Assembly: GCA_021805985.1 (NCBI GenBank)
Contig: JAJZDN010000006.1
Coordinates: forward strand, 5,786-69,785
DNA length: 64,000 bases
Source of the DNA: Planctomycetota bacterium
Lineage (GTDB): Bacteria; Planctomycetota; Phycisphaerae; WQYP01
Reading direction: 5' to 3'
Made by a program: the position numbers and the translations under genes. This document shows positions 14,943-33,428 of the stretch, in pieces (within the stretch, counting starts at the first letter, position 1; each line of letters begins with the position of its first letter). Under the pieces are notes generated by a model. The model was not told the DNA's origin and searched no databases. It saw nothing but the letters and a program-made list of their open reading frames with translations.

Positions 14943-16078
14943 GGCTCGTTCTCCCGCGGGAGAATCAGTTCTCCAAGGGCCTTGTCAAGCTCATCAAAGA
15001 AGCCTGCGGGCCAGTTGTCAATCCGACCGTCCGCGCTGATTTTCGGGGAAATTATAGAGGTTTGGGCCTCCGTCCCCTCCGCGTGACTGCCGAAGTAATG
15101 GATTGCGACATCTTGGGGTGCCAGTATCTCGTTTCGTACAGCCAAACGAACTGCGTTCAAGACATGATCACTGTGGCTTTCCATAAGTATTTGTAAGCCG
15201 GAGGCGGCCGCTCTGCATATTAATTCCGCTATTTTTGACTGCCCGCGCGGGTGAAGGTGGGCCTCGGGGTTCTCCACCAATAAAAGCCCGCCGCGCCTGG
15301 AGCTTAAAAGCGCCACCACAATCGGCAGGGTATACGTGATTCCGAATCCGACATTGGTGGTCCGGTAGGGGCGGCTGACGTCCCCCATGCGAGCGAAGGA
15401 GTATTTCAGCGAAACGGTATCAGTGGCCTCCTGGGCGACGCATGAAATCCGGAGGCCCGGTGCAACCTCCTGCATCCAAGCCTCCACTTGTTCCTTCAGG
15501 GTTGTTGCGTCTCCCTGGGTACTGCGTGGATGCCACATTTTGGGGACGCCCTGCAGTTTCTCTGATCCGAACTTCATAAGAAAATCGGAAGCGTAGCGCC
15601 CATCATTTCCCAGTTGGCGTTTCAGGTGCACCAAGTGCTCGGATGTGTCATAGGCCGTTCGTGGGCCTACCCGTTCCGCCTGGAGATAACAAAAGTCACT
15701 GCCAAAAATATTGGCGTTTTGAATCGACGCCCAGTTCGGACCCGCAGCAAGCTGCATCACATCCTCGTTGCGATTGTATGCAAACCTCCATCTCGCAATG
15801 CCCCCTAGTGACTGGGTGATTTCAATTTCAACAAAATCCTCATCCGCATTTTCATACAGTACGTCAATACCCCGCCCCGCCCGTAACAATTCGCCATCCA
15901 GCAACAGGCCCCCGCCGCGCAGCAGTCCTTGGTCGTACGACTGTCTAAGCAGCAGCAACGATTGAATCACTGAGCTTTTTCCCGTGCCATTTGCGCCGGT
16001 GAGTAACGTCAGGGGCGCAAGTCGCAGGGAAGCCTCCCTGAAGCATTTAAAATTATGCAGCCTCAATTTTTCGAGCAT
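14939..16078 (-). CDS. AAA_21/ABC-type ATPase with DUF3696-like C-terminal region (OLD/AbiL/Septu-like ATPase class)
   Basis: Walker A LLTGANGTGKSS near the N-terminus. Walker B/D-loop LLLVENPEAHLHP and a downstream H-loop. About 380 aa. Overlaps the upstream DUF262 gene by 16 nt. Confidence 0.8.
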   Translation of the reverse strand: MLEKLRLHNFKCFREASLRLAPLTLLTGANGTGKSSVIQSLLLLRQSYDQGLLRGGGLLLDGELLRAGRGIDVLYENADEDFVEIEITQSLGGIARWRFAYNRNEDVMQLAAGPNWASIQNANIFGSDFCYLQAERVGPRTAYDTSEHLVHLKRQLGNDGRYASDFLMKFGSEKLQGVPKMWHPRSTQGDATTLKEQVEAWMQEVAPGLRISCVAQEATDTVSLKYSFARMGDVSRPYRTTNVGFGITYTLPIVVALLSSRRGGLLLVENPEAHLHPRGQSKIAELICRAAASGLQILMESHSDHVLNAVRLAVRNEILAPQDVAIHYFGSHAEGTEAQTSIISPKISADGRIDNWPAGFFDELDKALGELILPRENEP

Positions 16079-18762: not shown

Positions 18763-20067
18763 TTAGGCCTGCAAGCGTGACCCAAGGGCATCAAGCACGC
18801 TCATATAATTCATGTATGCGTCATAAGGCGATTCATACATGCTGAAGCTCGGCGTATTTAAGTCGCCGAAAAATCGGGTGTTCATATACAGGAAGTGATC
18901 GCTGGAACCCAATTTTCGCCACGTGTTTAATAACGCCGCATCCGCAGAGTCTTTAACTGGCTGTTCCAGACGATACAACTCCTGCAGCGCGTTGGCCTGC
19001 ATGGCGTTGCCCAACCAAGGAGATAAATCCCGCTGGGCATCGGTCCAGCAGATATTCCGCGGCACGCTTAATTCCGCCACTGGCTCGTATTGCTTAATAA
19101 CTTCCGAAGGCGTACTGAAGCGGTCCCCATTTTCCAGTACGAATCGGGGTAGTGCCCGCAGGAATTCAAATATGCCGCTGGCCGCAGAATGCCGTTCGCC
19201 AAAGGTTTCGTAGTCCATTCCCAGCAGGCAGTATTCCCCCTCCGCGCCTGTGCCATGAAGCCAGCGGGCGTATTTATCCGCCATCAGTGGCCAGTTAATC
19301 CAATCGTGGGCGGAAAAGCGCAGCGATAAATCATCACTTAGCCGATAATGCCGCAGTAAGACTTTCAGTTGCTCACGCGCCGCTTTATACACATGTCCCG
19401 CGCTGCGATTTCCCAAGGCTCCCTCCCATCCCTCAGTAATAGCCGCCTGGAAGTTTAATCCTGCTGCCAGACGCCCTACCTCATTGGAGTAAATCAAATT
19501 GGTATTCCGGAATATGGTGGGCTTTTGTCCAAAATAGTGTTCGATCGTTCGGCTGTGCAAATTGACTTGGGAGGCGAATTCATCCGGGGAATAAAGACAC
19601 GCCAAGCTATGGTGCGATGTTTCCCCGAGAAATTCCACGCAACCGGTTTTAGCAAGCTCCTTCAATAACGCCACCACCTCCGGCGCGTCGTCCGCAAATT
19701 GTTCCAGAGCCGTATTAGTTACGCCCAGTGCCACGCGGAAAGCCGATCCGTATTGCCGCGCCAAATCCAGTAACACATGGGTGGCGGGAATATAACTGTG
19801 GCGGGCAATTTCCCGCGTGTAGCGCCGATTGGCCTGGGTGTCAAAATAATCCGAATCGGAATCAAAAATACTGTAGCGCCGCAGGCGGAAGGGCTGATGA
19901 ATCTGAAAATATAAAACCACAGCAACCATCGGGCGTGTCCTGTTCTGACGCACTTCTGCGTCATGATTATAACCATACGGGGCGAAATACGGCAGGAGGT
20001 CCCGTCCTGTCTGTGCCGTCCTGTCCATGCTGTAAGGCGTTAAACGGCGCGGAGTCCCATTTACCAA
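18763..20067 (-). CDS. glycoside hydrolase family 57 protein (alpha-glucan-active)
   Basis: N-terminal ...VVLYFQIHQPFRL... (GH57 HQP motif) and overall GH57-like composition. The true start is probably a downstream Met (MVAVV...). Confidence 0.65.
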   Translation of the reverse strand: MVNGTPRRLTPYSMDRTAQTGRDLLPYFAPYGYNHDAEVRQNRTRPMVAVVLYFQIHQPFRLRRYSIFDSDSDYFDTQANRRYTREIARHSYIPATHVLLDLARQYGSAFRVALGVTNTALEQFADDAPEVVALLKELAKTGCVEFLGETSHHSLACLYSPDEFASQVNLHSRTIEHYFGQKPTIFRNTNLIYSNEVGRLAAGLNFQAAITEGWEGALGNRSAGHVYKAAREQLKVLLRHYRLSDDLSLRFSAHDWINWPLMADKYARWLHGTGAEGEYCLLGMDYETFGERHSAASGIFEFLRALPRFVLENGDRFSTPSEVIKQYEPVAELSVPRNICWTDAQRDLSPWLGNAMQANALQELYRLEQPVKDSADAALLNTWRKLGSSDHFLYMNTRFFGDLNTPSFSMYESPYDAYMNYMSVLDALGSRLQA

Positions 20068-23009
20068 TCCAGCGTTTTACGCCATGCTTGCCGGAAATGC
20101 TCAACCGGTGCGTTGATGATTGTTTTGCCATTGATGGATTGCACCAGCAGGTCCGGTTTCTGCGTCACCCGGCCCAGAATACCAAAGGCCAGTGTTCGTA
20201 ACCGCCGCAACACGTCATCAAGATGTTCGGGTTTAACCTCCAGCACGTAGCGCGTGGGAGATTCGGAAAATAAGAGAATATCATCGCGATCCACTTCCGG
20301 ATCATGCGGAACGCCGGTCAGATCAATCTCGGCACCTAATCGGCCGGCAAAAAGCATCTCCGCCAAAGCCACGGCCAATCCTCCTTCCGACGGATCATGC
20401 GCACTGGCAACCAGTCCCTCAGAGATTAATTTGGCAACTCGTTGATGCACCCCGGGTGCGGTCGCCAGATCCACCGCCGGAATGCTGCGGCCGTTCTGCT
20501 GATGCAGCGCGTAATACCATGATCCCCCCATGTGCCGATGGGTCTGACCTACCAGCAGTAAATAATTTCCTGCCGCCTTGGCATCCATGGTTATGCAGCG
20601 CGAAACGTCAGGCACAATGCTGATGGCGCTGATCAGCAAGGTGTAAGGGATGCAAATACGTTTGCCTTCATCGGTGATAAATTCATTGGACAGAGAATCT
20701 TTGCCGGAAATAAAGGGCGTGCCGAACGCCATCGCCCCGTCATAACACGCCTGACACGCCCGCACCAGAGCACCTAAGTGCATGCGGTCGGAACATTTCG
20801 GCCAGCAGAAATTATCCAGTAATGCTGTGGTTTCCGGATCGCCGCCAACGCAGACAATATTGCGGATCGCTTCATCCATGCCGCTTAAGGTCATCTGATA
20901 CGGATCCAGATCACCGAGTCGTGGTTGACACCCATTGGCCAAGGCCACACCACGGTTGCTTTCGGGAACGGGAGCCAGCACCGCCGCATCTCCGGGGCCG
21001 TCCCCACCGGGGCCGATCAGCGGTTTAATGATGGTTGATCCCTGCACTTCATGATCGTATTGCCGGATAATCCAGTGTTTGCTGGCCAGTGTAGGCATGG
21101 CCAGGAGTTGGCATAATGTTTGGGCATAATCTGCAGGCTCCGCTACGGTGGCCTTGGGCAACACCGGCTCCTGCCATACTGCCTGGCGAATCGGGCAGGG
21201 CAGGCCGTCATGGATAAATTCCATGTCCATGGAGCCGACACTTTGCCCCTGATACCGCAGCGTCAGTTTGCCTGATCCATCAAATACGCCAATGTCCGTG
21301 GCTTCCACATCCTCCGCGGCTGCCAATTCCAGAAGCCGGGCAACATTTTCCGGCGCGACGGATACGACAATTCTTTCCTGAGCCTCGCTGATCCAGATTT
21401 CCGCATAGTTCAAACCGGCGTATTTCAGCGGCACTTTGTCCAATTCCACCGTGGCACCGGTATGGGATCCCATCTCCCCGATGGCACTGGATAACCCGCC
21501 GGCACCGCAGTCGGTAATGGCGTTATACAGCGGCCCGCAATCCCGCGCCTGGAGAATCACATCCATCATCTTTTTTTCAGTAATGGCATTGCCGATCTGT
21601 ACGGCGTGGCTGAATTCATCGCCATGTTTGTCGGTTATTACGTCGCTGGAAAATGTGGCGCCATGGATGCCGTCACGCCCGGTGCGGCCGCCGATGAGAA
21701 TAATCCGATCCCCTGCCTGGGCGTCCCTTTTTTCCGCCAGATGCCGCGGCAATAATCCCACCGACCCGCAGAACACCAGTGGATTGCCGATGTACCGCTG
21801 ATCAAAATAAACCGCGCCATTAACCGTCGGTATGCCCATGCGGTTGCCGTAATCCCGTACCCCGGCTACCACTCTTTGAGCGATGCGCCGCGGGTGCAGA
21901 ACGCCCACCGGCACCTGTTGCGCCGGCGTGGAGGGATCCGCAAAGCAAAATATATCGGTGCTGGCAATCGGTTTGGCTCCGCCGCCGGTGGCAATGACAT
22001 CGCGTATGCACCCGCCGATGCCGGTAGCGGCCCCGCCGTAGGGTTCAATAGCGGACGGGCGGTTGTGCGTTTCGACTTTCATGCACAAAGCCCATTTGTC
22101 ATCCAGCGCAATAACCCCGGCATTGTCCTTAAATACGCTTAACGTCCAGGGCTTATTAAGTTCCTTGGTAGCCCGGAAAATCGTGGACTTCACGAGATTA
22201 TCAATGGTCTGCATCTGATCGCCGGCGGTGTGATGTTCATGGACATCATCTTCATTTAACCCTGCAGGGTGATGAGAAAAATGGATTTTGGCTTTCAGGG
22301 TTTTATGAACGCAATGTTCGCTCCAGGTTTGCGCCAGCGTTTCAAGCTCCGCATCGGTTGGTTCGCGGTCCAGATGGCGGAAGTGTTCCTGAATGGCTTT
22401 CATTTCCGCCAGGTCCAGAAACAGATGGCCACGTCTGGACAACTGCTGAAGCTGGTCATCGGTCAGGTGGCGAATAGGCACTTCCAGCCGCTTGAATTCA
22501 TAGGCCTTGCCGCGCGGAAATTCGCTGGGCGTAAAAGCCGTTTCGTGAACTTGCTCTATGGAATCATTGGCCAGAAGTCGCCGGGCGATTTGGCTGGAAG
22601 TTTCCGCCGTCAGATGGCCCGAAAGCACATACCGCCGCCCTGTGCGCACCTGAATGGCCGATGGTTGCCGAGGCAGATTCAGCAAATCCGCGATGGCCAT
22701 TTCCGTGCTGCCGGCGACCGGATCCATGACTCCGGGCTTCAAGTGTACTTCCACCAGCCGACCCGCGCCGACGGTTTCATGCCCCACCACGACGCGCTCA
22801 GTCACCGGGTCGGCTAATAATTCTGTGGCTATTTTATGGACTTGCGAATGCAGCAGAATATCCGCTGCACCCTGCAGCAAAAATACGCGCGCCGTTTGTA
22901 CACCATGGACCTCAGCAATACCGAGTTGCTGAATTTCATGGAGGACCGCAGCGCCCGCTGGATCGTCGGCGGAATTTTGAGGATGAATTTCAACGCGATA
23001 AACAGCCAT
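20061..23009 (-). CDS. purL: phosphoribosylformylglycinamidine synthase subunit PurL with two fused N-terminal PurS-like domains
   Basis: PurM-like duplicated AIRS domains and the ATP-binding Gly-rich region. N-terminal MAVYRVEIHPQNSADDPAGAAVLHEIQQLGIAEVHGVQTARVF and a second copy (RLVEVHLKPGVMDPVAGS...) match the PurS pattern. Start trimmed to MAVYR with AGGAG RBS. Confidence 0.85.
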   Translation of the reverse strand: MAVYRVEIHPQNSADDPAGAAVLHEIQQLGIAEVHGVQTARVFLLQGAADILLHSQVHKIATELLADPVTERVVVGHETVGAGRLVEVHLKPGVMDPVAGSTEMAIADLLNLPRQPSAIQVRTGRRYVLSGHLTAETSSQIARRLLANDSIEQVHETAFTPSEFPRGKAYEFKRLEVPIRHLTDDQLQQLSRRGHLFLDLAEMKAIQEHFRHLDREPTDAELETLAQTWSEHCVHKTLKAKIHFSHHPAGLNEDDVHEHHTAGDQMQTIDNLVKSTIFRATKELNKPWTLSVFKDNAGVIALDDKWALCMKVETHNRPSAIEPYGGAATGIGGCIRDVIATGGGAKPIASTDIFCFADPSTPAQQVPVGVLHPRRIAQRVVAGVRDYGNRMGIPTVNGAVYFDQRYIGNPLVFCGSVGLLPRHLAEKRDAQAGDRIILIGGRTGRDGIHGATFSSDVITDKHGDEFSHAVQIGNAITEKKMMDVILQARDCGPLYNAITDCGAGGLSSAIGEMGSHTGATVELDKVPLKYAGLNYAEIWISEAQERIVVSVAPENVARLLELAAAEDVEATDIGVFDGSGKLTLRYQGQSVGSMDMEFIHDGLPCPIRQAVWQEPVLPKATVAEPADYAQTLCQLLAMPTLASKHWIIRQYDHEVQGSTIIKPLIGPGGDGPGDAAVLAPVPESNRGVALANGCQPRLGDLDPYQMTLSGMDEAIRNIVCVGGDPETTALLDNFCWPKCSDRMHLGALVRACQACYDGAMAFGTPFISGKDSLSNEFITDEGKRICIPYTLLISAISIVPDVSRCITMDAKAAGNYLLLVGQTHRHMGGSWYYALHQQNGRSIPAVDLATAPGVHQRVAKLISEGLVASAHDPSEGGLAVALAEMLFAGRLGAEIDLTGVPHDPEVDRDDILLFSESPTRYVLEVKPEHLDDVLRRLRTLAFGILGRVTQKPDLLVQSINGKTIINAPVEHFRQAWRKTLDW

Positions 23010-23697
23010 AACGCTCCTGCAAGCGGTCACTTCCCGGCACCCGTCTGCCTTTGGGAAATACCTTGTGATATTATGCGCGAATCCCGGCATTTTCGCATCC
23101 CAGCCGAAGCGCTTGTCGAAACGCAGCCGGTCAGGACGCAAACCGGCCGGCATTGAGGCTTAGCTGATGTGGAAACGCCTTGGCTAAAGTTGACCAATAT
23201 AGAATACGCAGGCAAGATAAAAACGCGTACCCCAAATCGAAAAATAAATTCCCGTCTGCGTTCCCAAAGCGGCTTATCCCACGGGGAGAATTCCATCTTG
23301 CAGCAAAGATCGACACGCGGTTGACAGCAAGCGGCTTGGGAAGACACAATATCCCCGTTGGGTTCTACGGAAGCGTTCAAACAATCTCGGTGAATTTTGA
23401 ATGCGCCCCTTTGAGTTTGGATAGTTTCCGTTCCCTCGCTGTCCACATTTTGGCGCCTGCTTAAAACACTCAAGCGGAGCTTAGCCAGCCAGTCGGCCGC
23501 CTCGGCATTCTGACTGGTGCTCGGCCTGTCTCGGCAACTACTCTATGATCGGCAAGCCAGTGGAATTGTATTTTGAGGATCACTTTTACTGTTACCATAC
23601 ATCAGGTGTGGCAAATGATTTTTCAGTGGGTACACTTCGGTAGTACCGTGCCCGCGGTTCACCGGTACCGGGACGGGCTTACGGCACGATTCGCAGC

Positions 23698-24366
23698 ATG
23701 GTTGTAAGGGTTGGCAACGTGGATATTGCGACTAACTTTAAATTAAAAATGCCCGCTGATATAGCGGCGTTGCAGTTGCTGGAATGTTATAGTGTGCCAA
23801 TCGACCAGCATATACTCCTTACGTTGTTATTCGGCATGCCAGCAGAGGAACAGGTGCGCGCTGACACCATGCGTAGTCTGGTTTGGCTGATCGGGCCAAA
23901 TGGGGAATCTGAAATCTGGCGACCCGGTAAAGATTATTCGGGCAGCAGCATCTGGTTTGCAGAGCCTGATACCGGGATTCTGCTGGGCAATGATTTTCAT
24001 AAACCTGATGCGGTATACGCGTGCAAACTTGACGGCACCCATATCGCGTCATTCAGGCTGCCGTTGTTATGGGGTAATCCCATTCAACCGTGGCGCTTCA
24101 AGGCAACGCAGAAGGGTATTGAATATGTGGATGCCCAAGGCGAATTGCAGCACACCGCCGACCTCGCAGAACTAATTCTCCGTGCCGAAGGTGCCGGCGA
24201 TGCAACGACCTCCCGTCTGGCCGCGGACTGGCGGCCCCGGACGTTGCTTTTGCCGACAAATATGCCGGGCGGAAACGGGATTCTGTTCCGCGTGAGTCGC
24301 AATGGCGATCACCTGCGACTGGATTGCATTCGGGCAATGCATAATCTCCAACCTGACTTCCTTTAA
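23698..24366 (+). CDS. hypothetical protein; its 3' ~130 bp is duplicated (diverged) at 28213-28345
   Basis: 222-aa ORF with no recognisable family. The C-terminal 43 codons have a diverged second copy 3.8 kb downstream. Confidence 0.5.
   Translation: MVVRVGNVDIATNFKLKMPADIAALQLLECYSVPIDQHILLTLLFGMPAEEQVRADTMRSLVWLIGPNGESEIWRPGKDYSGSSIWFAEPDTGILLGNDFHKPDAVYACKLDGTHIASFRLPLLWGNPIQPWRFKATQKGIEYVDAQGELQHTADLAELILRAEGAGDATTSRLAADWRPRTLLLPTNMPGGNGILFRVSRNGDHLRLDCIRAMHNLQPDFL
24215..24345 (+). repeat. left copy of an imperfect direct repeat flanking the R-M cassette
   Basis: ccgtctggccgcggactggcggccccggacgttgcttttgccgacaaat... aligns to 28213.. (about 85% identity over the first ~55 nt, weaker after; protein RLAADWRPRTLLLPTNMPGGNGILF vs RLAEDWRPRTLLLPTNAPGAEGILF). 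Confidence 0.7.
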
Positions 24367-24500
24367 GGACCTGCCCCGGGTACCGTCGCTGCCTACTGGG
24401 CACATGGATCCCGTTTACCGATATTGCCAAGGCCCTGAAAACCATTTACGCAATCGACGTTTTACGGCTATAATTCAATTCGCTTTCAAGAGGAGTCGTA

Positions 24501-25493
24501 ATGACGTTGGCTGCACCGAAACAGGTAGAAATGGGTAAGCAAAGAGCTTCGGCCGACGGGCCTCTCCAGCGGGAAAATGTGGCCAACGCCTTGTTTGAGG
24601 GCGATTGCCTGTCATTACTGGAACGTTTCCCATCGCATTGCGTTGATTTGATCCTATGTGATTTGCCCTATGGCACAACACAGAATCCGTGGGATAGCCC
24701 TATTAGTCTCACGGATCTATGGGCGGCGTATCGACGGATTCTCAAGCCCTCCGGCACGGTTGTACTAACGGCACAAGGCCTGTTCACCGCGCGTCTGATG
24801 GTCTCAAACGAAAAGTGGTTCCGTTACAAACTGGTTTGGGAAAAATCGAAGCCGACAAATTTCCTCAACGCCAGACGCCAGCCTTTGCGAAAACATGAAG
24901 ATATATGTGTTTTCTCACCCAGGCAGGCGGCCTATTTTCCTCAGATGGGGTTGGGCGTCCCGTATGACAAAGGCGTGCGAAAGAATCAGCTCTCCGGCTC
25001 ATACGGAGATTTTCTCCCCGCGCGCGTCCGCAGCGAAGGGCAGAGATTTCCCACGGACGTAATTTACTTCAAGACCGCTGAAAGTGAGGGGCAGGTTTGG
25101 CATCCCACGCAAAAGCCCGTGGCGCTGGGACAGTATCTGGTCCGCACGTACTCGCGACCGGGAGAACTCGTGCTGGATAACGCGTTCGGCAGCGGGAGCT
25201 TTCTTGTCGCCGCCCTGTTGGACGGGCGGCGATTCTGCGGCATTGAGCAGAACGATGAGGCGCAGCTTTTTAAGAAAGCCCACATCGACTACATCACGCT
25301 GGCTGCGCAGCGCCTTGGCCAGGCGTGGAGTTGCCTAAGCGAGGCGGTTCAACTGGAAATCAGCGCGATTCAGATATACCGCAAGGGTGAAAGTCCGTGC
25401 ACGGAGAAGTTCAGTGGCCAGAGCAAAGATTACCTTAAACGAGCGATCGTGGGCGATCGAATTAATCACCGCGATCAACTCCTATTCGGCTAA
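24501..25493 (+). CDS. DNA methyltransferase, beta class (N6-adenine or N4-cytosine)
   Basis: Motif IV LILCDLPYG (DPPY-type) precedes motif I AFGSGSF. HPTQKP motif. RBS AGGAG before ATG. Confidence 0.85.
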   Translation: MTLAAPKQVEMGKQRASADGPLQRENVANALFEGDCLSLLERFPSHCVDLILCDLPYGTTQNPWDSPISLTDLWAAYRRILKPSGTVVLTAQGLFTARLMVSNEKWFRYKLVWEKSKPTNFLNARRQPLRKHEDICVFSPRQAAYFPQMGLGVPYDKGVRKNQLSGSYGDFLPARVRSEGQRFPTDVIYFKTAESEGQVWHPTQKPVALGQYLVRTYSRPGELVLDNAFGSGSFLVAALLDGRRFCGIEQNDEAQLFKKAHIDYITLAAQRLGQAWSCLSEAVQLEISAIQIYRKGESPCTEKFSGQSKDYLKRAIVGDRINHRDQLLFG

Positions 25494-28161
25494 CCATCAA
25501 CGTGCCATCTGCCGCGCCGGGGGTGAATATACACTGACAGGAGGGGAAACTTCCCTCTTTCCAGACGTTCTTCTTTTCGGTGATCAGCAGTATGGGCTGG
25601 TGTTACAGGGCTGGGAACTAAAAATGCCCGACACCCCGATTACTGATATTCAACTGATTGAAAATGCGGAGAAAAAAGCACGACAATTGGGCCTGAAAAG
25701 TTTTGTTTTATGGAACGTCCGACAAGCCGTCCTCTATAGCCGCAGTGACGCCGGTACATTTTCCCCTCAACGCAGTTGGGGACCTATCGACATCCAAACA
25801 CGCGAGGCGGTAGCGGCGGCCACACAGAAATGGCTGGGCTTATTACACCAGATACTCGACGATCTAAATGATATCTTTGAACAGCGACCGGAAACCGCCA
25901 CTGCCGTGCCAGAGGTACTAGACTGCCTGTTTGCCGACCTGATCGCTCGCCACAGCCCGTCGTATGCCGCCGCGCTTACAACGGCACGAAGGAGGCAATC
26001 TGCGTTTCGCGCCCAGATCGACCAATGGTGGATGGAAAGCAGCCACGATCATCCCGGATTAAGCGCGCCACAGGCCTTAGCTGAGGCAAACATTCTTAAC
26101 TGGCTCAACAAACTGATTTTTGCACATTGCTTAAAAAGGTTCCGCAGAGAGGCGTTTGCGGTGGACGACATTGTGCAGGGCACGACGGTGGCTCAAACGC
26201 AACAGGCTCTCATAAAAATTAGCAAAGCGTGCAATTTCATGGCCGTGTTTCAGAATATGGTTGGGCAAGAGCATGTTGACCAGGCAACATGGCAATCTTT
26301 GCTGGCCGCCAACGCTCTGCTAATCGGCACCCGGCTTGATAAGGTGCCCCCATCGCTTTTGGCACAAACGCTGGAAGGAACCGTCGAGCGCTGCCGGCGG
26401 AAGGCGTTCGGGCAATTTCTGACACCGGTTCCGTTGGCGGATTTTCTTGTGCGCGTTGCCGTCGACAACATCGAGGGAACCATCCTGGACCCGTGCTGCG
26501 GTGCCGGGACCATCGCCCGGACCGCGTATCAATGGAAAAAAAGCGAAAACATCGCTCCCAGCATCGCCCTGGGGCAGATCTGGGCTGGTGATAAATTTAC
26601 ATTTCCGCTTCAACTTGCCACAATGGCCCTTGCCGACCCGGAGGCTATTGGGACACCCTTGAACATATTTTGTCACGATGCACTTATTCTTGCCGCAGGC
26701 CAAAATATCCCCCTCACAGACCCCAAAACCGGTCAATGTTTCAACGCACTTTTACCTCCCGCTGACTGCATCGTTTCGAATCTGCCCTTTGTGCGTTTCG
26801 AGACACTTGGAAGACAACGGGGCATAAGCCGCAGCGCAGCACCGGGGCCGAGGATTCCCGTACTCGATTCCAAAAGCGATTTATTTGCACACCTTCTCAT
26901 GAATTTCCCGCGATTGCTGCGCGCAGGCTCGCGCGTTGGTGTGATTGTTGCAAATTCGTGGCTCGGAACAGGTTGGGGCCGACAGTTTCGGCAACAATTG
27001 GGAAAGCATTTTCATGTGCGCGCCGTTATCACCTCGGCAAACGGACGCTGGTTTGGTAAGGCCGCCGTTGTTACAAACATCCTGTTGCTGGAACTGCGGG
27101 ACAAACATGCCCCGGAAAACGCCCATGAAGGCACCAACTTTATTACGACTTTGGAACCTCTCGATCAGTGGAACAAAGCCGGCGGCGGGATAGCAGAACT
27201 GGCCGGGCAGGCAACCTATGCGACTGGGGCGAAATCGAACACCCGTTTGCACGTGAGTAGTCTCACAACGCGGAAAATCGTGGAAATGGAGAATTTGGGG
27301 TTGCAATGGACCGCGTTCTTTGCAAACTTGGATTTCATGGAAGCGGTCCGGTCTTCGCTTGTGCCAGCCAATAGCCTGTTCAGCATCAACCGGGGCGAAC
27401 GGCGGGGATGGGACAAATTCTTCTATCCACAATCGGAATCAGGGATAGAACCAAAATTCCTCAAACCGGTTGTGATGAATTCGAAACGGCTTTCCGGACT
27501 TATCGCCCAGCCGGATGCCCAGGCCTTCTGCTGCTCCTTAACGCCTGAGGACTTAACCGGGAAAGGCTGCCGGGGCGCACTGGCTTGGATCAACAGGTAC
27601 AAATTGCAGACAAATGGCACGGGAAAACCACTGCCGCAGGTGTTGCGCCGCCCGGGATGCCAATGGTACGAAATGAAAGCATCTACACTTGCGGATTTTG
27701 CAATCCCCATTAACCCCGACGCTCGGCTTTGCGTGTTCCGGCTAAAAGACCAGATATTTGTCAATCAGCGATTCATCCGGCTTACGCTCCGCAAGTCTCC
27801 ACGTATTGACGCGGAACTCGTACATGCGCTCTTGAATTCCACCTTGGGAATGTTCCTGATCGAAGCTGCCGGGTTCGGCCGCGGTTTAGGAGTCTTAGAC
27901 CTTAACGCAACCAAGTTATCGAAAACCTTTCATATTCTGAATCCCGATAGACCCGATGCAACGGCTGCCGCCAGAATAAAAGCATATTTCCGCCCGTTGC
28001 TTGCGCGCCCTATAAAAGAATTACCGAAAGAGATTGCCTGCCCGGACCGGCTGGATTTTGATAGCTGTATAGCTGAGGTTTATGGATTTGTGGGGCTGGA
28101 ACAAGGCATCCGAGATGCCGTGGAGTTTCTTTATAAAACCCGTAAATCCGCAAAGGATTAA
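25387..28161 (+). CDS. Type IIG/IIL restriction-modification fusion enzyme (N-terminal PD-(D/E)xK nuclease plus gamma-class N6-adenine MTase plus C-terminal specificity region)
   Basis: N-terminus FPDVLLF...GWELKMPD (PD...ExK). MTase motif I DPCCGAGT and motif IV NLPF (NPPY/F type). 924 aa, MmeI/Eco57I-like size. Non-ATG (GTG) start overlaps the upstream MTase gene by ~107 nt. Confidence 0.75.
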   Translation: MKVRARRSSVARAKITLNERSWAIELITAINSYSANHQRAICRAGGEYTLTGGETSLFPDVLLFGDQQYGLVLQGWELKMPDTPITDIQLIENAEKKARQLGLKSFVLWNVRQAVLYSRSDAGTFSPQRSWGPIDIQTREAVAAATQKWLGLLHQILDDLNDIFEQRPETATAVPEVLDCLFADLIARHSPSYAAALTTARRRQSAFRAQIDQWWMESSHDHPGLSAPQALAEANILNWLNKLIFAHCLKRFRREAFAVDDIVQGTTVAQTQQALIKISKACNFMAVFQNMVGQEHVDQATWQSLLAANALLIGTRLDKVPPSLLAQTLEGTVERCRRKAFGQFLTPVPLADFLVRVAVDNIEGTILDPCCGAGTIARTAYQWKKSENIAPSIALGQIWAGDKFTFPLQLATMALADPEAIGTPLNIFCHDALILAAGQNIPLTDPKTGQCFNALLPPADCIVSNLPFVRFETLGRQRGISRSAAPGPRIPVLDSKSDLFAHLLMNFPRLLRAGSRVGVIVANSWLGTGWGRQFRQQLGKHFHVRAVITSANGRWFGKAAVVTNILLLELRDKHAPENAHEGTNFITTLEPLDQWNKAGGGIAELAGQATYATGAKSNTRLHVSSLTTRKIVEMENLGLQWTAFFANLDFMEAVRSSLVPANSLFSINRGERRGWDKFFYPQSESGIEPKFLKPVVMNSKRLSGLIAQPDAQAFCCSLTPEDLTGKGCRGALAWINRYKLQTNGTGKPLPQVLRRPGCQWYEMKASTLADFAIPINPDARLCVFRLKDQIFVNQRFIRLTLRKSPRIDAELVHALLNSTLGMFLIEAAGFGRGLGVLDLNATKLSKTFHILNPDRPDATAAARIKAYFRPLLARPIKELPKEIACPDRLDFDSCIAEVYGFVGLEQGIRDAVEFLYKTRKSAKD

Positions 28162-28212
28162 TCGACCATCATCCGGCCCCCCGATAGCGTCTGCTTAAGG
28201 AAATACAGAAGT

Positions 28213-28345
28213 GGCCGTCTGGCCGAGGATTGGCGTCCCCGGACATTGCTTTTGCCGACAAATGCCCCCGGTGCCGAGGGAATTTTGTTTCACTTGAACC
28301 GCGAAGGTGATCACGTGCAGCTGGATTGTCTCCGATCAACGCGCT
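28213..28345 (+). repeat. right copy (diverged gene-3'-end remnant) of the direct repeat flanking the R-M cassette
   Basis: Encodes RLAEDWRPRTLLLPTNAPGAEGILFHLNREGDHVQLDCLRSTR*, homologous to the C-terminus of the 23698..24366 protein. Lies immediately 3' of the R-M gene stop. Confidence 0.7.
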
Positions 28346-28554
28346 GATCTCAATGACCCAGTTTCGGAGACCGCGTCCCGGGTCGAGGCGTTGCCCGGGA
28401 ACGGCTTCTGATCCGGTTGTCAGGCGGATCACGCAGGTAGTTGTGAACTGACGGGAGGCTATCGTTATAGATTGGTATTGCCGTTTTCGGCGGCCTGCGT
28501 ATACTTAATGCACAATAAACAAATGGTTCCACGTATTTTTAGGAAGGAGATTCG

Positions 28555-31452
28555 ATGCGAGCGTACTCATCTCGTAGGCGGTGCCGAAAAAGCCTAGTGT
28601 CGGTTGTCTCGCTGGCTGTGGTAGTGGGAGCGTCATCGGCGGCGCAAGCCACCGCCGTTACTGTTATTGGAAATAATGGCGGCCCGGGACAAAATGGTGG
28701 AGTGGCGGATGCAACGGCACGTAGTGGCAGCAGCACAGATGCAAATATTGTGGCAACCGCGCGTGGGGGCAACGGAGGCAACGGGAATCAGATCACTCCC
28801 AATGGCGGGGCGGGAGGAATAGCAAGTGCTGGTGCTTATACCGGGATCGGCGGGCCAGCCCTGATCGCATCTCCGCAAGTTACTGTGTCCGCCGCCGCAG
28901 CGGGCGGCCAAGGGGGTTATAGCGACATCGGTGCGGGAGGCATTGGTGGCAACGGCGGGTACGCTTCCCTCGGAATAGTGGAAGGGGGTTCTTCATTACT
29001 GGGAGCCGACGTTTCCATCACTGGCTCCGTGCAGGGTGGCGACGGCCGCCTTGGGCCGTCGGAAAGGCTTTCAAATGCGGTCAATGGATATTCCAATGGA
29101 GGCGCCCTGGCACTGACGCAGAATACTACCGGCGGATCATCGTTGAATCCCGGCGGCAGTGGCGGCTATGCCAGCAGTGTGCTCAATGAGAACCTCGCCG
29201 GCTTTTCTCATGCACCATCGGCCTTGACATTACATGTCAGTTCCACTGGTGGCAATGGCGGTGCTGCCAACACATTCACGAGCACCAGCGGTCAGGTTCA
29301 ACCAATTCCTGGTGGCAATGGCGGCAATACGCTGAGTTCTGCCGTCGGCAGTCTTTCGGGCAATGGTGCGGTAACCATTAACGCCACCGCCATCGGCGGC
29401 AATGGTGGCGCAGCTGATACGGCCGCACGTATTTCCGCCGGCCAAGGCGGAGCTGCTCAGCTGGGCCAGGTGGATGGCCAATCCGGCACCGGTACCGTTA
29501 GTGTTTCAGCAACCGCCATCGGCGGCGGCGGCAGCAACGGGCTGGCCGAGAATCTCAACAATGCTGTGCGCGGCCAAACGGCTGGTCCACTGAGTTTGAC
29601 GCAGAGTGCCACGGGTGGTTCGGCGTTGAACCCCGGTGGCAGTGGCGGCTATGCCAGTAGTGTGCTCAATGAGAACCTTGCCGGCTTTTCTAATGCACCA
29701 TCATCCTTGACGTTAAATGTCAGTTCCACCGGTGGCAATGGCGGTGCTGCCTTCTCCAGCGACCCTGCTGTAGGAACATCCGGCGGCAATGGCGGCAATA
29801 CGCTGAGTTCTGCCGTTGGCAGTCTTTCGGGCAATGGTGCGGTAATCATTAACGCCACCGCCATCGGCGGCAATGGTGGCGTAGCAGATACTGCCGCACG
29901 TATTTCCGCCGGCCAAGGTGGCGTTGCCCAATTGGGGCAGGTGGGTGGCCAGTCGGGTTCCGGCGCAGTTAGCGTATCGGGAACGGTCATTGCCGGTAAT
30001 GGCAGCAAGGGAGGTAGTGAGACTCTCAACAATGCTGTGCGCGGCCAAACGGCTGGTCCACTGAGCTTAACGCAGAATGCCACGGGTGGTTCGGCGTTGA
30101 ACCTCGGTGGCAGTGGCGGCTATGCCAGTAGTGTGCTCAATGAGAACCTCGCCGGCTTTTCTAATGCACCATCATCCTTGACATTAAATGTCAGTTCCAC
30201 CGGTGGCAATGGCGGTGCCGCCTTCTCCAGCGACCCTGCTGTAGGAACATCCGGCGGCAATGGCGGCAATGGCGGCAATACGCTGAGTTCTGCCGTCGGC
30301 AGTCTTTCGGGCAATGGTGCGGTAACCATTAACGCCACCGCCATCGGCGGCAATGGTGGCGCAGCTGATACGGCCGCAGGTATTTCCGCCGGCCAAGGCG
30401 GAGCTGCTCAGCTGGGCCAGGTGAGAGGCCAATCGGGTTCCGGCGCAGTTAGCGTATCGGGAACGGCGATCGGTGGTAACGGTGAATACGGAGTTAACGA
30501 GAATCTGAATAATCTGGTGACCGGAACAACCGCAGGCTCCCTGTCTTTAACGCAGACAGCGCAAGCCGGCAACGGTTTTGTCGGCGGCAATGCGGTAAGT
30601 GGCTTAACCTATTCTGCTTCCGAAAGCACCAGTCTGACCTTGGTATCCCAAGCTGTAGGGGGCATCGGGGCTTTCCCGGAAACCGGCACAGTGGCTGGTA
30701 TCCCGCCTCAGTCGGGCACCGCTCGGGCGGACGCCGGCGGTATGGCGGTCGCCGGGACCGCCACAGCCGTGGCCACCGCGCGTTCAAGCGCTGGTTATTT
30801 TATTCAATCGGTTGCCACACAAGCCAGCGCTCCGTTGTCTTCAGGTGTTAGCCAGAATGTTGAGAGCTTTGCATCAATCGGTCAATCCATGCGGCCCTCC
30901 AGTGGCGCTACCGGATTGGAGGCCGTTTCTTACGCGACTGGTTTTACCGCCCTAACAGCCCCAACCTCCGGCAGTACAGTGGAGGTGGGCAGTGCGTTGT
31001 TGCAGGCGGGAGGAGGCTCTTCGCCAACTGCGTATACCGCCAGCGCGACGTGGGCTTTCAACCCTGTAAAGTTATGGGTCCCGGGACAGAGCATGATTGT
31101 TACATTCTCAAATGTCGGCTATACCGGGTCGGGATTGGTAAGCTTTAAAATTCTTTTGGACAACGTATTGATTGGAGGCGTCGGCAACCAAGGGACACCG
31201 GTAAATTTTGCGATGGCCCAGAATTATTTTACACATTCACCGATAGATCTGGGAACGCTGAATGCTATGCCGCAGAACTCCACCTTGGAAGTATGGCTTT
31301 CTGTGGTCAGTACTGCCAATGGTGTATTTGATCCGACCGTCAATTTATACAATGGCCCATCGTCCAGCGTCCCGGAGCCCGGAGCGTTAGCGATCCTGAT
31401 CTTGGGAACTTTGTCCATGGTGGTGCGAAGAAGGCCGAAAGCTCCTCGGTAA
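28555..31452 (+). CDS. PEP-CTERM sorting-domain protein, Gly/Asn/Ser-rich with tandem repeats
   Basis: N-terminal signal peptide. Extensive GGNGG repeats. C-terminal VPEPGALAILILGTLSMVVRRRPKAPR (PEP motif, TM helix, basic tail). AGGAAGGAG RBS. Confidence 0.8.
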   Translation: MRAYSSRRRCRKSLVSVVSLAVVVGASSAAQATAVTVIGNNGGPGQNGGVADATARSGSSTDANIVATARGGNGGNGNQITPNGGAGGIASAGAYTGIGGPALIASPQVTVSAAAAGGQGGYSDIGAGGIGGNGGYASLGIVEGGSSLLGADVSITGSVQGGDGRLGPSERLSNAVNGYSNGGALALTQNTTGGSSLNPGGSGGYASSVLNENLAGFSHAPSALTLHVSSTGGNGGAANTFTSTSGQVQPIPGGNGGNTLSSAVGSLSGNGAVTINATAIGGNGGAADTAARISAGQGGAAQLGQVDGQSGTGTVSVSATAIGGGGSNGLAENLNNAVRGQTAGPLSLTQSATGGSALNPGGSGGYASSVLNENLAGFSNAPSSLTLNVSSTGGNGGAAFSSDPAVGTSGGNGGNTLSSAVGSLSGNGAVIINATAIGGNGGVADTAARISAGQGGVAQLGQVGGQSGSGAVSVSGTVIAGNGSKGGSETLNNAVRGQTAGPLSLTQNATGGSALNLGGSGGYASSVLNENLAGFSNAPSSLTLNVSSTGGNGGAAFSSDPAVGTSGGNGGNGGNTLSSAVGSLSGNGAVTINATAIGGNGGAADTAAGISAGQGGAAQLGQVRGQSGSGAVSVSGTAIGGNGEYGVNENLNNLVTGTTAGSLSLTQTAQAGNGFVGGNAVSGLTYSASESTSLTLVSQAVGGIGAFPETGTVAGIPPQSGTARADAGGMAVAGTATAVATARSSAGYFIQSVATQASAPLSSGVSQNVESFASIGQSMRPSSGATGLEAVSYATGFTALTAPTSGSTVEVGSALLQAGGGSSPTAYTASATWAFNPVKLWVPGQSMIVTFSNVGYTGSGLVSFKILLDNVLIGGVGNQGTPVNFAMAQNYFTHSPIDLGTLNAMPQNSTLEVWLSVVSTANGVFDPTVNLYNGPSSSVPEPGALAILILGTLSMVVRRRPKAPR
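29080..30530 (+). repeat. three tandem ~480-bp (160-aa) near-identical repeat units inside the PEP-CTERM gene
   Basis: The block ...AVRGQTAGPLSLTQ.ATGGSALNPGGSGGYASSVLNENLAGFSNAPSSLTLNVSSTGGNGGAA...TINATAIGGNGG.ADTAARISAGQGG.AQLGQV... recurs three times. Copies 2 and 3 are nearly identical at DNA level. Confidence 0.8.
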
Positions 31453-31616
31453 ATGAACCCTTGGCCTGGGCCGCCTCCGCCGTTTTTCTCAACAGCAACC
31501 TTTCGCCCGATGGGCGGACCGTGGAAGCAACCCCGCGGCTACGCCGCCATCTCCTGAATTTCGGAGACACTGCGGTTAGAATGCCGTCCGGTGTTTGGCT
31601 GAGGTAGTCTTAGATC

Positions 31617-33428
31617 ATGCTGCGTGAACTGCATATTTCTAATTTGGCCGTGATTGCGGATGCGGCGGTTGAATTTGACGCGGGCTTGAACTGCTTTACG
31701 GGACAGACCGGAGCGGGAAAGTCGTTGGTGCTGGGGGCGTTGGAACTGCTGCTGGCGTTGCGGTCGGGGCAGAATATGCTGCGGGCTGGGGCCAGCGAGG
31801 CGCGTATTACCGGTGTATTTGTTATTCAAAACGCTGCCCTGCGCCGCCGCCTGGCGGAGATTACCGATCTGCCTCTGGCGGACGAACCGGAAATTATTCT
31901 CGTGCGGCGGATTCATGAATCAGGCCGCACCACGGCCTCACTTAACGGCCAGCCGCTCACGGGATCCATGCTCAAAAACATTGCCGAGACGCTGGTGGAT
32001 ATTCACGGCCAGCATGACGCCCAATACCTGCTTAAGCCCGCCAACCAACTGGCCCTGCTTGATGATGCCGGGCATCTTAGTGCGCTGGCTGAAGAATTCC
32101 GCACGCTGCATCAGCAGCGGCGGGAACTGATGATCCAATCGCGGGAACTTAGTGCATCCCAAACCCTGCGCAAGCAACAGATGGAGCTTTATGAATTTCA
32201 AGCGAGGGAAATGGAGGATGCTGCCCCGCAACCGGGGGAATTAGAGATACTGGAGTCGCGGCATCGGCTGTTAAGCAATATCGAAAAAATTAAACGCCTC
32301 GGTGGCAGCGCGTATGAAGCACTGTATGAGGATGACGCCGCCATCATCGGCCGACTGAAAACCGTTACCGCCGTTCTGCTGGAAGCGGCGGAATTAAATC
32401 CGGATTTTATTGCCGCAGCCGGGCAGGTAAAAGATTCCACCATCGCCCTGGATGATGCGGCATTTACTTTACGCCGCACGCTGGATCACTTGGAGTTGGA
32501 CCCCGAAGAACTCGCAAGCGTATCCGATCGGCTTAATACGCTTAATCGGCTGATCAGCAAATATTGCGGTCACGGCGGCGGCCTGGATCAGTTACTGGAG
32601 TATCAGGAAAGTATCAAAGCGCAGTTGACGCAATTGAAATCCGCCGATCAAAACTCCGCCGATTGCGATGCCCGCATTGCAGAGCTGGAGAAGCAATTAT
32701 CAGCGGTTGGTGCCAAACTTTCCCAAGGGCGGAGAAAAGCTGCGGAAGTTGTTACACCGGGAGTGCATCAGCAATTGGCTGATTTGGGAATGAAGGAAGC
32801 CCGGTTTCACATCGAATTTTTGCCCATGGGGGCCGCAGGCGAAATACCGGGCCATCCGGATGATCTCTTTACTTCGCCCAGCGGAATGGAGACGGTGGAA
32901 TTTATGCTGGCCCCCAATCCCGGGCAGCCGGCGCGGCCCTTGCGCAAAATTGCCAGTGGCGGGGAACTATCCCGCGTGATGCTGGCAGTGAAGTCTATTT
33001 TGGCCGCGTCAGACCGGGTCAGCGTACTGGTGTTTGATGAAATTGACGCCAATGTCGGCGGAAGGATGGGGACGATCATTGGGGAAAAATTACGCGATAT
33101 CGCCGGGCGGCACCAGGTGCTGTGCATCACGCATTTGCCGCAGATAGCGGCGTATGCGGATCGGCATATTAGCATTCATAAGGTTGTGCGCGATGGCGAA
33201 AGTTTTACCTCCGTGAGTGCTCTGACCGGTCAGGTGCGCCTGGAGGAACTGGCGGAAATGATTACCGGGAAAAATATTACTCCCACATCGCTGGCCCAGG
33301 CGCAGGAACTTCTGGCATTGGCGGTTAGGAAAACAGGGGAGGCAGCTCCTGCGGCACGGAAAACAGGGTCCAATCGCGACAAGGCGAAAAAGCCGGCCGC
33401 CTTACCCAAAAGCCTGACGGAGAAATAA
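31617..33428 (+). CDS. recN: DNA repair protein RecN with lysine-rich C-terminal extension
   Basis: MLRELHISNLAVIADAAVEFDAGLNCFTGQTGAGKS (Walker A). SMC-like coiled coil. C-terminal signature/Walker B LSGGELSRVMLA...VLVFDEID. About 50 extra K-rich residues at the end. Confidence 0.9.
   Translation: MLRELHISNLAVIADAAVEFDAGLNCFTGQTGAGKSLVLGALELLLALRSGQNMLRAGASEARITGVFVIQNAALRRRLAEITDLPLADEPEIILVRRIHESGRTTASLNGQPLTGSMLKNIAETLVDIHGQHDAQYLLKPANQLALLDDAGHLSALAEEFRTLHQQRRELMIQSRELSASQTLRKQQMELYEFQAREMEDAAPQPGELEILESRHRLLSNIEKIKRLGGSAYEALYEDDAAIIGRLKTVTAVLLEAAELNPDFIAAAGQVKDSTIALDDAAFTLRRTLDHLELDPEELASVSDRLNTLNRLISKYCGHGGGLDQLLEYQESIKAQLTQLKSADQNSADCDARIAELEKQLSAVGAKLSQGRRKAAEVVTPGVHQQLADLGMKEARFHIEFLPMGAAGEIPGHPDDLFTSPSGMETVEFMLAPNPGQPARPLRKIASGGELSRVMLAVKSILAASDRVSVLVFDEIDANVGGRMGTIIGEKLRDIAGRHQVLCITHLPQIAAYADRHISIHKVVRDGESFTSVSALTGQVRLEELAEMITGKNITPTSLAQAQELLALAVRKTGEAAPAARKTGSNRDKAKKPAALPKSLTEK

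What the first reader, a model, noticed from the sequence alone, without database searches (positions are those of the whole stretch)
24215..28345. Restriction-modification cassette bounded by diverged direct repeats of the host gene 3' end, an insertion signature
The last ~43 codons of the 23698..24366 gene recur 3.85 kb downstream (28213-28345), with ~85% nt identity at the start and clear protein-level colinearity to its own stop codon. The two R-M genes lie exactly between the copies. This is the pattern left by site-specific integration into the 3' end of a protein-coding gene, where the element supplies a replacement 3' end and the displaced original persists distally. No integrase or recombinase lies inside the bounded segment, so the cassette may be a decayed or minimal mobile unit, or mobilised in trans. 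The divergence between copies suggests the element came from a different lineage or the event is old.
Basis: seen in the sequence. Interest (0 to 1): 0.65.

Follow-up and report, generated by a model that had tools for sequence, protein, structure and literature searches.

The report
R-M cassette flanked by duplicated gene end
A two-gene restriction-modification cassette sits in a variable slot next to recN in an uncultivated Phycisphaerae bacterium, between the working 3' end of a neighbouring gene and a displaced copy of that end from a different allele; this is a known way for such cassettes to enter genomes, so the case is clear but ordinary.

Summary
The last ~43 codons of the 222-aa gene ("gene X", 24213-24349) recur at 28215-28356: 96/128 nt identical, an exact 18-mer present only twice in the window, tblastn E 1e-18. 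Between the copies lie only a type II methyltransferase and a full-length type IIG restriction-methylase.

- L007/L008 run gene X straight into the PEP-CTERM gene, colinear with window 28215-30076.
- L004, L006 and L018-L025 run gene X straight into recN.

The distal copy is the orthologue of the L007 gene end (88%). It is less like the window's own proximal copy (75%).

A second lineage (L009/L010) carries the same cassette and the identical right junction, but its remnant comes from a different allele. The switch points differ: 24255-24263 in the window, 24225-24240 in L009. No recombinase occurs in any version.

The gene X-recN slot also holds another R-M pair, a cellulase gene, an IS66 element and the PEP-CTERM gene.

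Best reading: an "insertion with long target duplication" (Kobayashi class), made once and then moved and reshuffled among strains by homologous recombination. Integrase-mediated integration is not supported. It is a new member of a known kind, of modest interest.

The parts
23698..24366 (+). Gene X. The longest ORF is 222 aa; gene callers use the start at 23719, giving 215 aa. Conserved, all-beta (propeller-like) protein of unknown function, always next to recN. Its 3' end is the insertion target.
   Evidence: ORF; 14 homologues, no Pfam, NCBIfam or PADLOC family; AlphaFold model pLDDT 80, all-beta, only weak propeller-type PDB matches; synteny with recN in all loci
24213..24349 (+). Proximal repeat copy: the functional 3' end of gene X, of the cassette-linked allele type (PGGxG...RA). 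The ancestral stop is mutated TAA->CAA at 24345-24347, so the ORF runs on to 24366.
24244..24261 (+). Exact 18-nt stretch TTGCTTTTGCCGACAAAT shared with 28246-28263. In this lineage the switch from cassette-linked to host-type sequence lies just to its right.
24350..28214 (+). Cargo of the insertion (about 3.87 kb): CTGACTTCC...GAAGTGG. It holds the intergenic leader, both R-M genes and a 53-nt spacer.
   Evidence: Junction comparison between the in-gene copies and the L009 remnant
24501..25493 (+). Type II N6/N4 DNA methyltransferase, 330 aa. A promoter-like site lies at 24445-24474 and an AGGAG ribosome-binding site lies upstream.
   Evidence: Pfam PF01555 E 4e-24; PADLOC MTase_II E 5e-55; promoter scan
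25387..28161 (+). Type IIG restriction endonuclease-methyltransferase fusion, about 915-924 aa. The start codon is uncertain, within 25387-25435. It overlaps the end of the methyltransferase gene.
   Evidence: PADLOC PDLC03606 E 8.6e-231, full length; Pfam N6_Mtase; homologues are 897-932 aa, several with a PF07669 hit, which I recall as the Eco57I family
28162..28214 (+). Spacer between the IIG stop and the remnant. It is 52/53 identical in L009/L010 and defines the shared right junction ...GAAGTGG|CCGTCTGG.
28215..28356 (+). Distal copy: the displaced, non-functional 3' end of gene X. It has no start codon and a premature TGA at 28345. The first ~48 nt are of the cassette-linked type; the rest is of L007 type (71/80).
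28362..31568 (+). Second insert in the same slot: a PEP-CTERM glycine-rich repeat protein gene (28555-31452), bounded by a 10-nt direct repeat TTTCGGAGAC (28362-28371 and 31559-31568). It is present in L007/L008 and absent in L002, L005, L009 and L018.
31573..33428 (+). Right border of the variable slot: the conserved recN-upstream block GGTTAGAATrCCG... and recN itself (31617-33428).
   Evidence: blastn boundaries at 31570-31574 in all loci; alignment

Best explanation
The segment is a two-gene type II R-M cassette (a methyltransferase plus a type IIG restriction-methylase). It lies in a variable slot between gene X and recN and is flanked by a ~135-nt duplication of the target, the 3' end of gene X through its stop codon. 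This is the geometry of the recombinase-free 'insertion with long target duplication' described for R-M gene complexes.

Inferred history:
1. One founding insertion, in an ancestor whose gene X abutted recN, produced [gene X - cargo - copy of the gene X end]. The enzymology of that step is unknown. Illegitimate or one-ended homology-facilitated recombination is the most likely candidate.
2. Afterwards the unit moved and was reshuffled among related strains by ordinary homologous recombination. The left arm was the gene X body. The right arm was the remnant paired with the recipient's own gene X end, or recN.
3. In the window's lineage the right crossover fell next to the 18-nt core. The remnant's distal 80-90 nt and the downstream PEP-CTERM gene are therefore of the L007-like host allele. 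The functional gene end travels with the cassette.

Shown: the repeat, the R-M identity, the empty sites, the heteroallelic origin of the two copies, the shared junction in a second lineage with a different breakpoint, and the absence of recombinases.

Inferred: the single founding event, the role of homologous recombination, and the direction of transfer.
For: The repeat is real and non-random. The cargo is R-M only.

Empty sites:
- L007/L008 are colinear with window 23608-24324 and then 28215-30076.
- L004, L006 and L018-L025 have gene X followed directly by recN.

Origin of the two copies:
- Remnant 88% to the L007 gene end versus 75% to its own proximal copy.
- pN/pS 0.37 between the copies.

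Second lineage (L009/L010, two MAGs):
- Same cassette with a 2.3-kb internal deletion.
- Window vs L009 identity is 93.5% in the IIG 3' part, 52/53 in the spacer and 25/27 in the first 27 nt of the remnant. It then drops abruptly to 61-64%.
- Its remnant is 88% like the L001 gene end and abuts the recN-upstream block as an empty site would.
- Informative sites place the switch at 24255-24263 in the window and 24225-24240 in L009. The two intervals do not overlap.

Gene X is a mosaic. The window is nearest to L001 in the 5' part and to L009 in the 3' part, and linkage to the cassette decays with distance.

No recombinase occurs in any version. The criteria of Furuta, Abe and Kobayashi 2010 (PMC2853133) are all met.
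Against: In published cases the two repeats are nearly identical (44/46, 417/423). Here they are 75% identical, so the simple picture needs the added recombination step.

Only two lineages with a remnant could be compared. The breakpoint difference rests on three informative sites (24240, 24250, 24255). Intragenomic gene conversion between the copies could also have made the 18-nt identity.

L002, L003 and L031 carry the same cassette but no remnant. A decayed unrelated gene follows the cassette there, so the founding structure may have been larger than what is seen now.

The founding mechanism is not observable from sequence.
Confidence: 0.6

Rival explanations
1. Site-specific integration. 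An integrative element whose attP mimics the last ~135 nt of gene X is inserted by a tyrosine or serine recombinase, now lost or acting in trans. The element supplies the new gene end and the host's original end is displaced.
For: The cassette-linked 3' end type occurs only with this cassette. The right junction is identical in two host backgrounds. An exact 18-nt stretch is shared by both copies in the window. A fixed core inside the first 27 nt (24213-24239) cannot be strictly excluded.
Against: No recombinase lies in or next to the cassette in any of about 10 locus versions. The 18-mer is absent from the L009 remnant and the switch points differ. Homologous MTase+IIG pairs at other chromosomal sites carry no gene X fragment. 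Other cargo in the same slot has no comparable repeat. Gene X itself is an all-beta protein, not a recombinase.
Confidence: 0.15
2. A direct one-step import in the window's own lineage by homology-facilitated illegitimate recombination. Donor DNA [gene X - R-M] was anchored by homology in gene X or purL. Its far end joined illegitimately inside the recipient's gene X end, creating the junction here.
For: The two copies are from different alleles. The left part of gene X is a recombination mosaic. Other inserts in the slot have ~10-nt direct repeats at their borders, which is typical of illegitimate joins.
Against: Exactly the same junction, including a 52/53-identical spacer, is found in L009/L010 with a different remnant allele. 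The junction was therefore formed once, before these lineages separated or exchanged it, and not de novo in the window lineage.
Confidence: 0.12
3. An old in situ duplication. The gene X end was duplicated in place, with or without the insertion, and the two copies simply drifted apart to 75% within one lineage, with no foreign allele involved.
For: A remnant free of selection would diverge over time. L009's two copies are closer to each other (84%) than the window's.
Against: The window remnant is much closer to a functional orthologue in another genome (L007, 88%; 71/80 in the distal part) than to its own partner (52/80), and it is colinear with that genome's downstream gene. Divergence between the copies is mostly synonymous (pN/pS 0.37). 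Identity changes stepwise rather than evenly. No genome shows two copies without cargo.
Confidence: 0.06
4. Assembly artefact. A chimeric metagenome contig joined two strains' versions of the locus.
For: All the data are MAG or metagenome contigs. Several contigs break right after gene X (L001, L004), which shows that the region is polymorphic.
Against: The same two-copy structure is found in independent assemblies (L027 and L028 for the window type; L009 and L010 for the second type).
Confidence: 0.02

Closest known systems
R-M gene complexes inserted with a long target duplication. I recall the founding report as Nobusato et al. 2000, cited as reference 37 in Furuta, Abe and Kobayashi 2010, NAR 38:2428 (PMC2853133).
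   Same: The insert contains R and M genes and no mobility gene. It is under 20 kb. It is flanked by direct repeats over 30 bp long that correspond to a single-copy sequence at the empty site of a related genome. The target overlaps the 3' end of a gene, as in the H. influenzae examples.
   Different: Published repeats are near-identical to each other (44/46, 417/423, 388/397). Here they are 75% identical, and each is closer to a different allele in other genomes. The structure has therefore been passed between strains or partly replaced by homologous recombination. The host is an uncultivated Phycisphaerae lineage.
Integrase-encoding genomic islands and prophages that integrate into the 3' end of a tRNA, tmRNA or protein-coding gene and restore it
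   Same: An intact gene with a replaced 3' end sits on one side, and a displaced partial 3' end sits on the other side of the insert.
   Different: There is no integrase in or beside the insert in any version. No fixed identical core is shared by the two lineages. The cargo is only two genes.
Allelic or variable defence slots between conserved core genes. From my own knowledge, not checked here: the E. coli hsd 'immigration control region' and core defence hotspots in Pseudomonas. Furuta et al. 2010 describe allelic substitution of R-M systems.
   Same: The gene X-recN interval holds alternative cargo in related genomes. Examples are this IIG system, a D12 MTase with a weakly SacI-like gene (L005), a D12 MTase with an unknown 424-aa gene (L026), or nothing.
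   Different: Non-defence cargo also occurs: a PEP-CTERM protein, a GH5 cellulase and an IS66 element. Only the IIG cassette carries the long repeat.
Eco57I-like type IIG R-M systems with a separate companion methyltransferase
   Same: A ~920-aa fusion protein with an N6_Mtase domain gives a full-length match to PADLOC REase_MTase_IIG. A separate N6_N4 methyltransferase gene lies directly upstream and overlaps it.
   Different: Recognition sequence and cleavage are untested. The nuclease motif was seen only by eye (PDVLLF...ELK near the N-terminus).

Membership tests
R-M insertion with long target duplication (criteria of Furuta et al. 2010) | The insert contains both R and M gene homologues | tested here: met
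   MTase_II plus full-length REase_MTase_IIG
R-M insertion with long target duplication (criteria of Furuta et al. 2010) | The insert is shorter than 20 kb and holds no other mobile-element genes | tested here: met
   Cargo is about 3.87 kb (24350-28214). It holds only the two R-M genes; Pfam, NCBIfam and PADLOC show no integrase or transposase
R-M insertion with long target duplication (criteria of Furuta et al. 2010) | Direct repeats longer than 30 bp flank the insert | tested here: met
   128-137 nt, 75% identity, ungapped
R-M insertion with long target duplication (criteria of Furuta et al. 2010) | The repeat aligns to a single copy at an uninterrupted site in a related genome | tested here: met
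   L007/L008 (gene X then PEP-CTERM) and L004, L006, L018-L025 (gene X then recN) have one copy and no R-M
R-M insertion with long target duplication (criteria of Furuta et al. 2010) | The two repeats are near-identical, as copies of one target. This is typical of published cases but is not a formal criterion. | tested here: not met
   96/128 identical. Each copy is closer to a different allele elsewhere. Explained here by later homologous recombination.
Integrase-mediated integrative element at a gene 3' end | A tyrosine or serine recombinase gene inside or adjacent to the element | tested here: not met
   None in the window segment or in L002, L003, L009, L010, L027, L031 or L037. Supply in trans cannot be excluded.
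Integrase-mediated integrative element at a gene 3' end | The same short identical core at attL and attR in every integration | tested here: inconclusive
   The window has an 18-nt identity. The L009 remnant lacks it and switches allele type 15-35 nt further left. A core within 24213-24239 is not excluded.
Integrase-mediated integrative element at a gene 3' end | An excised circular form or an attP-bearing free element exists | not testable with these tools
   This needs raw reads from the source metagenomes
Type IIG restriction-modification enzyme | A single polypeptide with an N-terminal nuclease, a gamma-class N6-adenine MTase domain and a C-terminal specificity region | tested here: met
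   Full-length PADLOC PDLC03606 match, E 8.6e-231. Pfam N6_Mtase at residues 338-574. The nuclease motif was seen only by eye. Activity is untested.

The most novel reading that the evidence does not exclude
The 3' end of gene X and the recN leader form a dedicated cassette-capture site. An unlinked recombinase acting in trans would serve it, much as an integron platform does. This would explain why R-M pairs, a PEP-CTERM gene, a cellulase gene and small inserts all land within a few bases of the gene X stop codon. Several of them have direct repeats at their borders: ~135 nt here, 10 nt around the PEP-CTERM gene, and ~10 nt around a 138-nt insert in L020, L021 and L004.
Probability: 0.07. Interest if true: 0.65.

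Novelty: new member of a known kind. Interest (0 to 1): 0.3.

Why it matters
The case adds a clear example from Planctomycetota (Phycisphaerae) to the recombinase-free mode of R-M gene movement. That mode is so far documented mostly in naturally competent Proteobacteria.

The heteroallelic repeats show something the near-identical repeats of published cases cannot. Once made, the duplication gives the cassette a portable homology arm. The cassette can then enter any strain that has only the target gene, and it can be lost again by recombination between the copies.

The case also marks the gene X-recN interval as a local hotspot of gene flux, with elevated allelic divergence of the flanking gene. 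This is useful for population-genomic study of these uncultivated bacteria. It does not reveal a new kind of element.

Tried and rejected
1. Base composition. There is no GC or skew anomaly over 24.2-28.3 kb, so composition gives no evidence on foreign origin.
2. A second gene X-end copy behind the other cargo types (L005, L026, L002, L003, L031). None was found by tblastn or the repeat finder.
3. Gene X fragments next to homologous MTase+IIG pairs at other loci (L032-L036). None were found. A 21-nt direct repeat flanking the L033 cassette (86%) was judged to be probable chance.
4. Metagenome scan with the gene X profile. It returned only one extra locus (L026), so the breakpoint comparison stayed limited to two lineages.
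5. Identifying gene X as a possible recombinase or defence gene. There was no family hit. The structure model is all-beta and propeller-like, with only weak PDB matches (TM 0.2-0.4). The AFDB50 fold library was unavailable.
6. My first impression that the decayed gene after the cassette in L002 and L003 is an AlbA_2/HATPase_c_4-type gene. Pfam did not confirm it; there was only a sub-threshold Fic-like_C match, so I dropped the label.
7. The promoter and terminator scan of 23.1-28.7 kb gave counts no higher than in shuffled sequence.
Full report
**1. The observation**

The 222-aa ORF at 23698-24366 (gene X; gene callers start it at 23719, giving 215 aa) ends with ...SRLAADWRPRTLLLPTNMPGGNGILFRVSRNGDHLRLDCIRAMHNLQPDFL*. 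A second, ORF-less copy of the last ~43 codons lies at 28215-28356 (...GRLAEDWRPRTLLLPTNAPGAEGILFHLNREGDHVQLDCLRSTR*).

- The repeat is ungapped. It is 128 nt at 75% identity with 4002-nt spacing (D4).
- It scores tblastn E about 1e-18.
- It contains an exact 18-mer found only at 24244-24261 and 28246-28263, with none expected by chance.
- Identity is stepwise: 24/27, then 20/21, then 52/80.

Between the copies lie an N6_N4 methyltransferase (24501-25493) and a ~920-aa protein that matches the PADLOC type IIG REase-MTase model over its full length (E 8.6e-231). Nothing else is encoded there, and base composition is unremarkable. The structure is present in two independent assemblies of the same strain (L027, L028).

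**2. Context and organism**

Upstream is purL (20061-23153, minus strand). Downstream are a 965-aa PEP-CTERM glycine-rich repeat protein (28555-31452) and recN (31617-33428). Related contigs are labelled Phycisphaerae, Phycisphaerales or Planctomycetota MAGs.

Gene X has 14 homologue clusters and no family assignment. An AlphaFold model (pLDDT 80) is all-beta with only weak propeller-type matches. It is not a recombinase. Gene X is always followed, sooner or later, by recN and a MatE gene.

**3. Comparative evidence**

I fetched 37 loci. The interval between gene X and a sharply conserved recN-upstream block (GGTTAGAATrCCG, window 31573) is a variable slot.

| Content of the slot | Loci |
|---|---|
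| Nothing | L004, L006, L018-L025 |
| PEP-CTERM gene only | L007/L008 |
| This MTase+IIG cassette | window/L027-30, L002, L003, L031, L001/L037 (contigs end early), L009-L014 |
| A D12-class MTase plus a weakly SacI-like gene | L005 |
| A D12 MTase plus an unknown 424-aa gene | L026 |
| An IS66 transposase | L011 |
| A GH5 cellulase | L015 |

No genome has two gene X ends without cargo between them.

**4. Which copy is which**

L007/L008 match the window over purL (92.5%), over gene X (23608-24324, 80%), and then over 28215-30076 (82.6%) without interruption. The L007 gene end and its downstream PEP-CTERM gene therefore correspond to the window's remnant and PEP-CTERM gene.

- Over the 128-nt repeat, the remnant is 88% identical to the L007 gene end (71/80 in the distal part). 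It is 75% identical to the window's own proximal copy (52/80 in the distal part).
- The proximal copy is 91% identical to the L009 in-gene end. It belongs to an allele type (PGGxG...RA, with AACCTGACTT after the stop) seen only in cassette-bearing haplotypes.
- Divergence between the two window copies is mainly synonymous (pS 0.48, pN 0.18, ratio 0.37), as expected for two functional alleles.

So the distal copy is the displaced host end, and the functional end travels with the cassette.

**5. The second lineage and the breakpoints**

L009/L010 are two separate MAGs. They carry the cassette with a 2.3-kb deletion that removes the end of the MTase gene and most of the IIG gene. They also carry a remnant. 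Window vs L009 identity is:

| Segment | Identity |
|---|---|
| IIG 3' part | 93.5% |
| Spacer | 52/53 |
| First 27 nt of the remnant | 25/27 |
| Next 22 nt of the remnant | 14/22 |
| Rest of the remnant | 51/84 |

The L009 remnant (RLAADWRPRAPLLPANIPGGGGTLFRLTRNEDHLRLDCVRAAHIL*) is 88% like the L001 in-gene end. Nine bases after its stop it runs into the recN-upstream block, exactly like an empty site.

This gives the geometry:
- target duplication = CCGTCTGG...CTC-TAA-C, about 137 nt through the stop codon;
- cargo = CTGACTT...GAAGTGG, window 24350-28214.

Informative-site analysis gives the following.
- In the window remnant, sites up to 24255 are mostly of the cassette-linked type (4 against 2). 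From 24263 onward they are almost all of L007 type (about 38 against 5).
- In the L009 remnant, sites up to 24225 are of the cassette-linked type (3 against 0). From 24240 onward they are of L001 type.
- At sites 24240, 24250 and 24255 the two remnants disagree, so the two switch intervals do not overlap.
- The 18-mer is absent from the L009 remnant and from L007.

One junction with different crossover points is what homologous recombination within the remnant predicts. A fixed-core site-specific recombinase would not predict it. The evidence is limited to two lineages and three sites.

**6. Further support for recombination**

Gene X is a mosaic. The window is nearest to L001 in the 5' third (85-87%, against about 60% for the others) and nearest to L009 in the 3' third (92-97%). 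Gene X as a whole is far more diverged among these genomes (72-88% nt) than purL and recN (88-93%). Linkage to the cassette is complete for the adjacent 3' end and decays further left.

**7. Mechanism**

The most likely history has three steps.
1. One founding insertion produced a ~137-nt target duplication in a genome where gene X abutted recN. Its enzymology is unknown. Illegitimate or one-ended homology-facilitated recombination is plausible, since other inserts in the slot have ~10-nt repeats at their borders.
2. The cassette then spread and reshuffled by homologous recombination, using the gene X body and the remnant or recN as arms.
3. Local decay followed: an internal deletion in L009/L010, loss of the remnant in L002, L003 and L031, and a premature stop in the window remnant.

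The repeats would also allow loss or amplification of the cassette, as proposed for this class. That was not tested here.

**8. Comparison with known systems**

Furuta, Abe and Kobayashi (2010, PMC2853133) define 'insertion with long target duplication' by four features:
- R and M genes in the insert;
- an insert shorter than 20 kb with no other mobile element;
- repeats longer than 30 bp;
- a single copy of the repeat at the empty site.

All four are met here. The difference is the low identity between the repeats, 75% against at least 93% in their tables. I attribute this to inter-strain recombination.

The integrase model fails on the recombinase criterion and is inconclusive on the core criterion. 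The slot as a whole resembles allelic R-M or defence loci between conserved genes.

**9. Verdict**

This is a new member of a known kind, with modest interest (0.3). The residual novel reading is a trans-served cassette-capture site at the gene X stop codon. It is unlikely, at about 7%.

Noticed in passing
window 28362-28371 and 31559-31568: The PEP-CTERM gene insert (about 3.2 kb; absent in L002, L005, L009 and L018) is bounded by an exact 10-nt direct repeat, TTTCGGAGAC. One copy lies just after the remnant's ancestral stop and the other just before the recN-upstream block. About 0.04 such matches are expected by chance between the two flanks.
   Followed up: partly
L020 1583-1898, L021 1087-1401, L004 10565-10898, compared with L018 6746-6923: Some 'empty' sites carry an extra ~138-nt non-coding insert right at the gene X stop codon. 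It is flanked by a ~10-nt direct repeat (AAACCAGTGA / AAACCATTGA). This is another small insertion at the same spot.
   Followed up: no
window 23437-23516 (intergenic, purL to gene X): An 80-nt vestige matches (86-92%) a piece of a three-gene cluster. The genes are 240, 348 and 219-236 aa, on the minus strand, with no Pfam or PADLOC family. The cluster lies between purL and gene X in L009, L010, L012 and L015 (partly in L016, L017 and L037). It is absent from the window, L002, L003, L005 and L007. The left side of gene X is therefore also a variable slot.
   Followed up: partly
window 28159-28347: The remnant is in the same reading frame as the type IIG ORF. Only the TAA at 28159-28161 separates them, so readthrough would add about 61 residues. 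The same holds in L009. This is probably coincidence.
   Followed up: no
window 29065-30556 (inside the PEP-CTERM gene): There are three tandem units of about 471-483 nt (83-97% identical). The same gene is 808 aa instead of 965 aa in an independent assembly of the same strain (L028), which indicates repeat-number variation.
   Followed up: no
window about 13986-17208, minus strand (from L027 gene calls, offset 13718): A second probable defence cluster lies between the DNA ligase gene and the purL region. It holds a GmrSD_N (DUF262) protein, an AAA_15/AAA_21/DUF3696 ATPase and a 318-aa unknown. Relatives such as L005 have different genes there.
   Followed up: no
L009 5789-5833 and L010 (equivalent to window 25381-27666): Two MAGs carry the cassette with a 2.3-kb deletion. 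It removes the last ~30 codons of the methyltransferase and about 760 codons of the IIG enzyme. L014, which has the identical gene X protein, is undeleted at that point. Intact and decayed cassettes therefore coexist.
   Followed up: partly
L002 10693-11168, L003 14478-15102, L031 2940-3317: In these relatives the cassette is followed not by a remnant but by a decayed fragment of an unrelated gene. That fragment has only a sub-threshold Fic-like_C match. Homology with the window ends 15 nt after the IIG stop (28176). The ancestral island may have been larger.
   Followed up: partly
window 23698-24366 compared with purL and recN: Gene X is much more diverged among these closely related genomes (72-88% nt) than its flanking housekeeping genes (88-93%). 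It is also visibly mosaic, as expected next to a long-lived polymorphic slot.
   Followed up: partly
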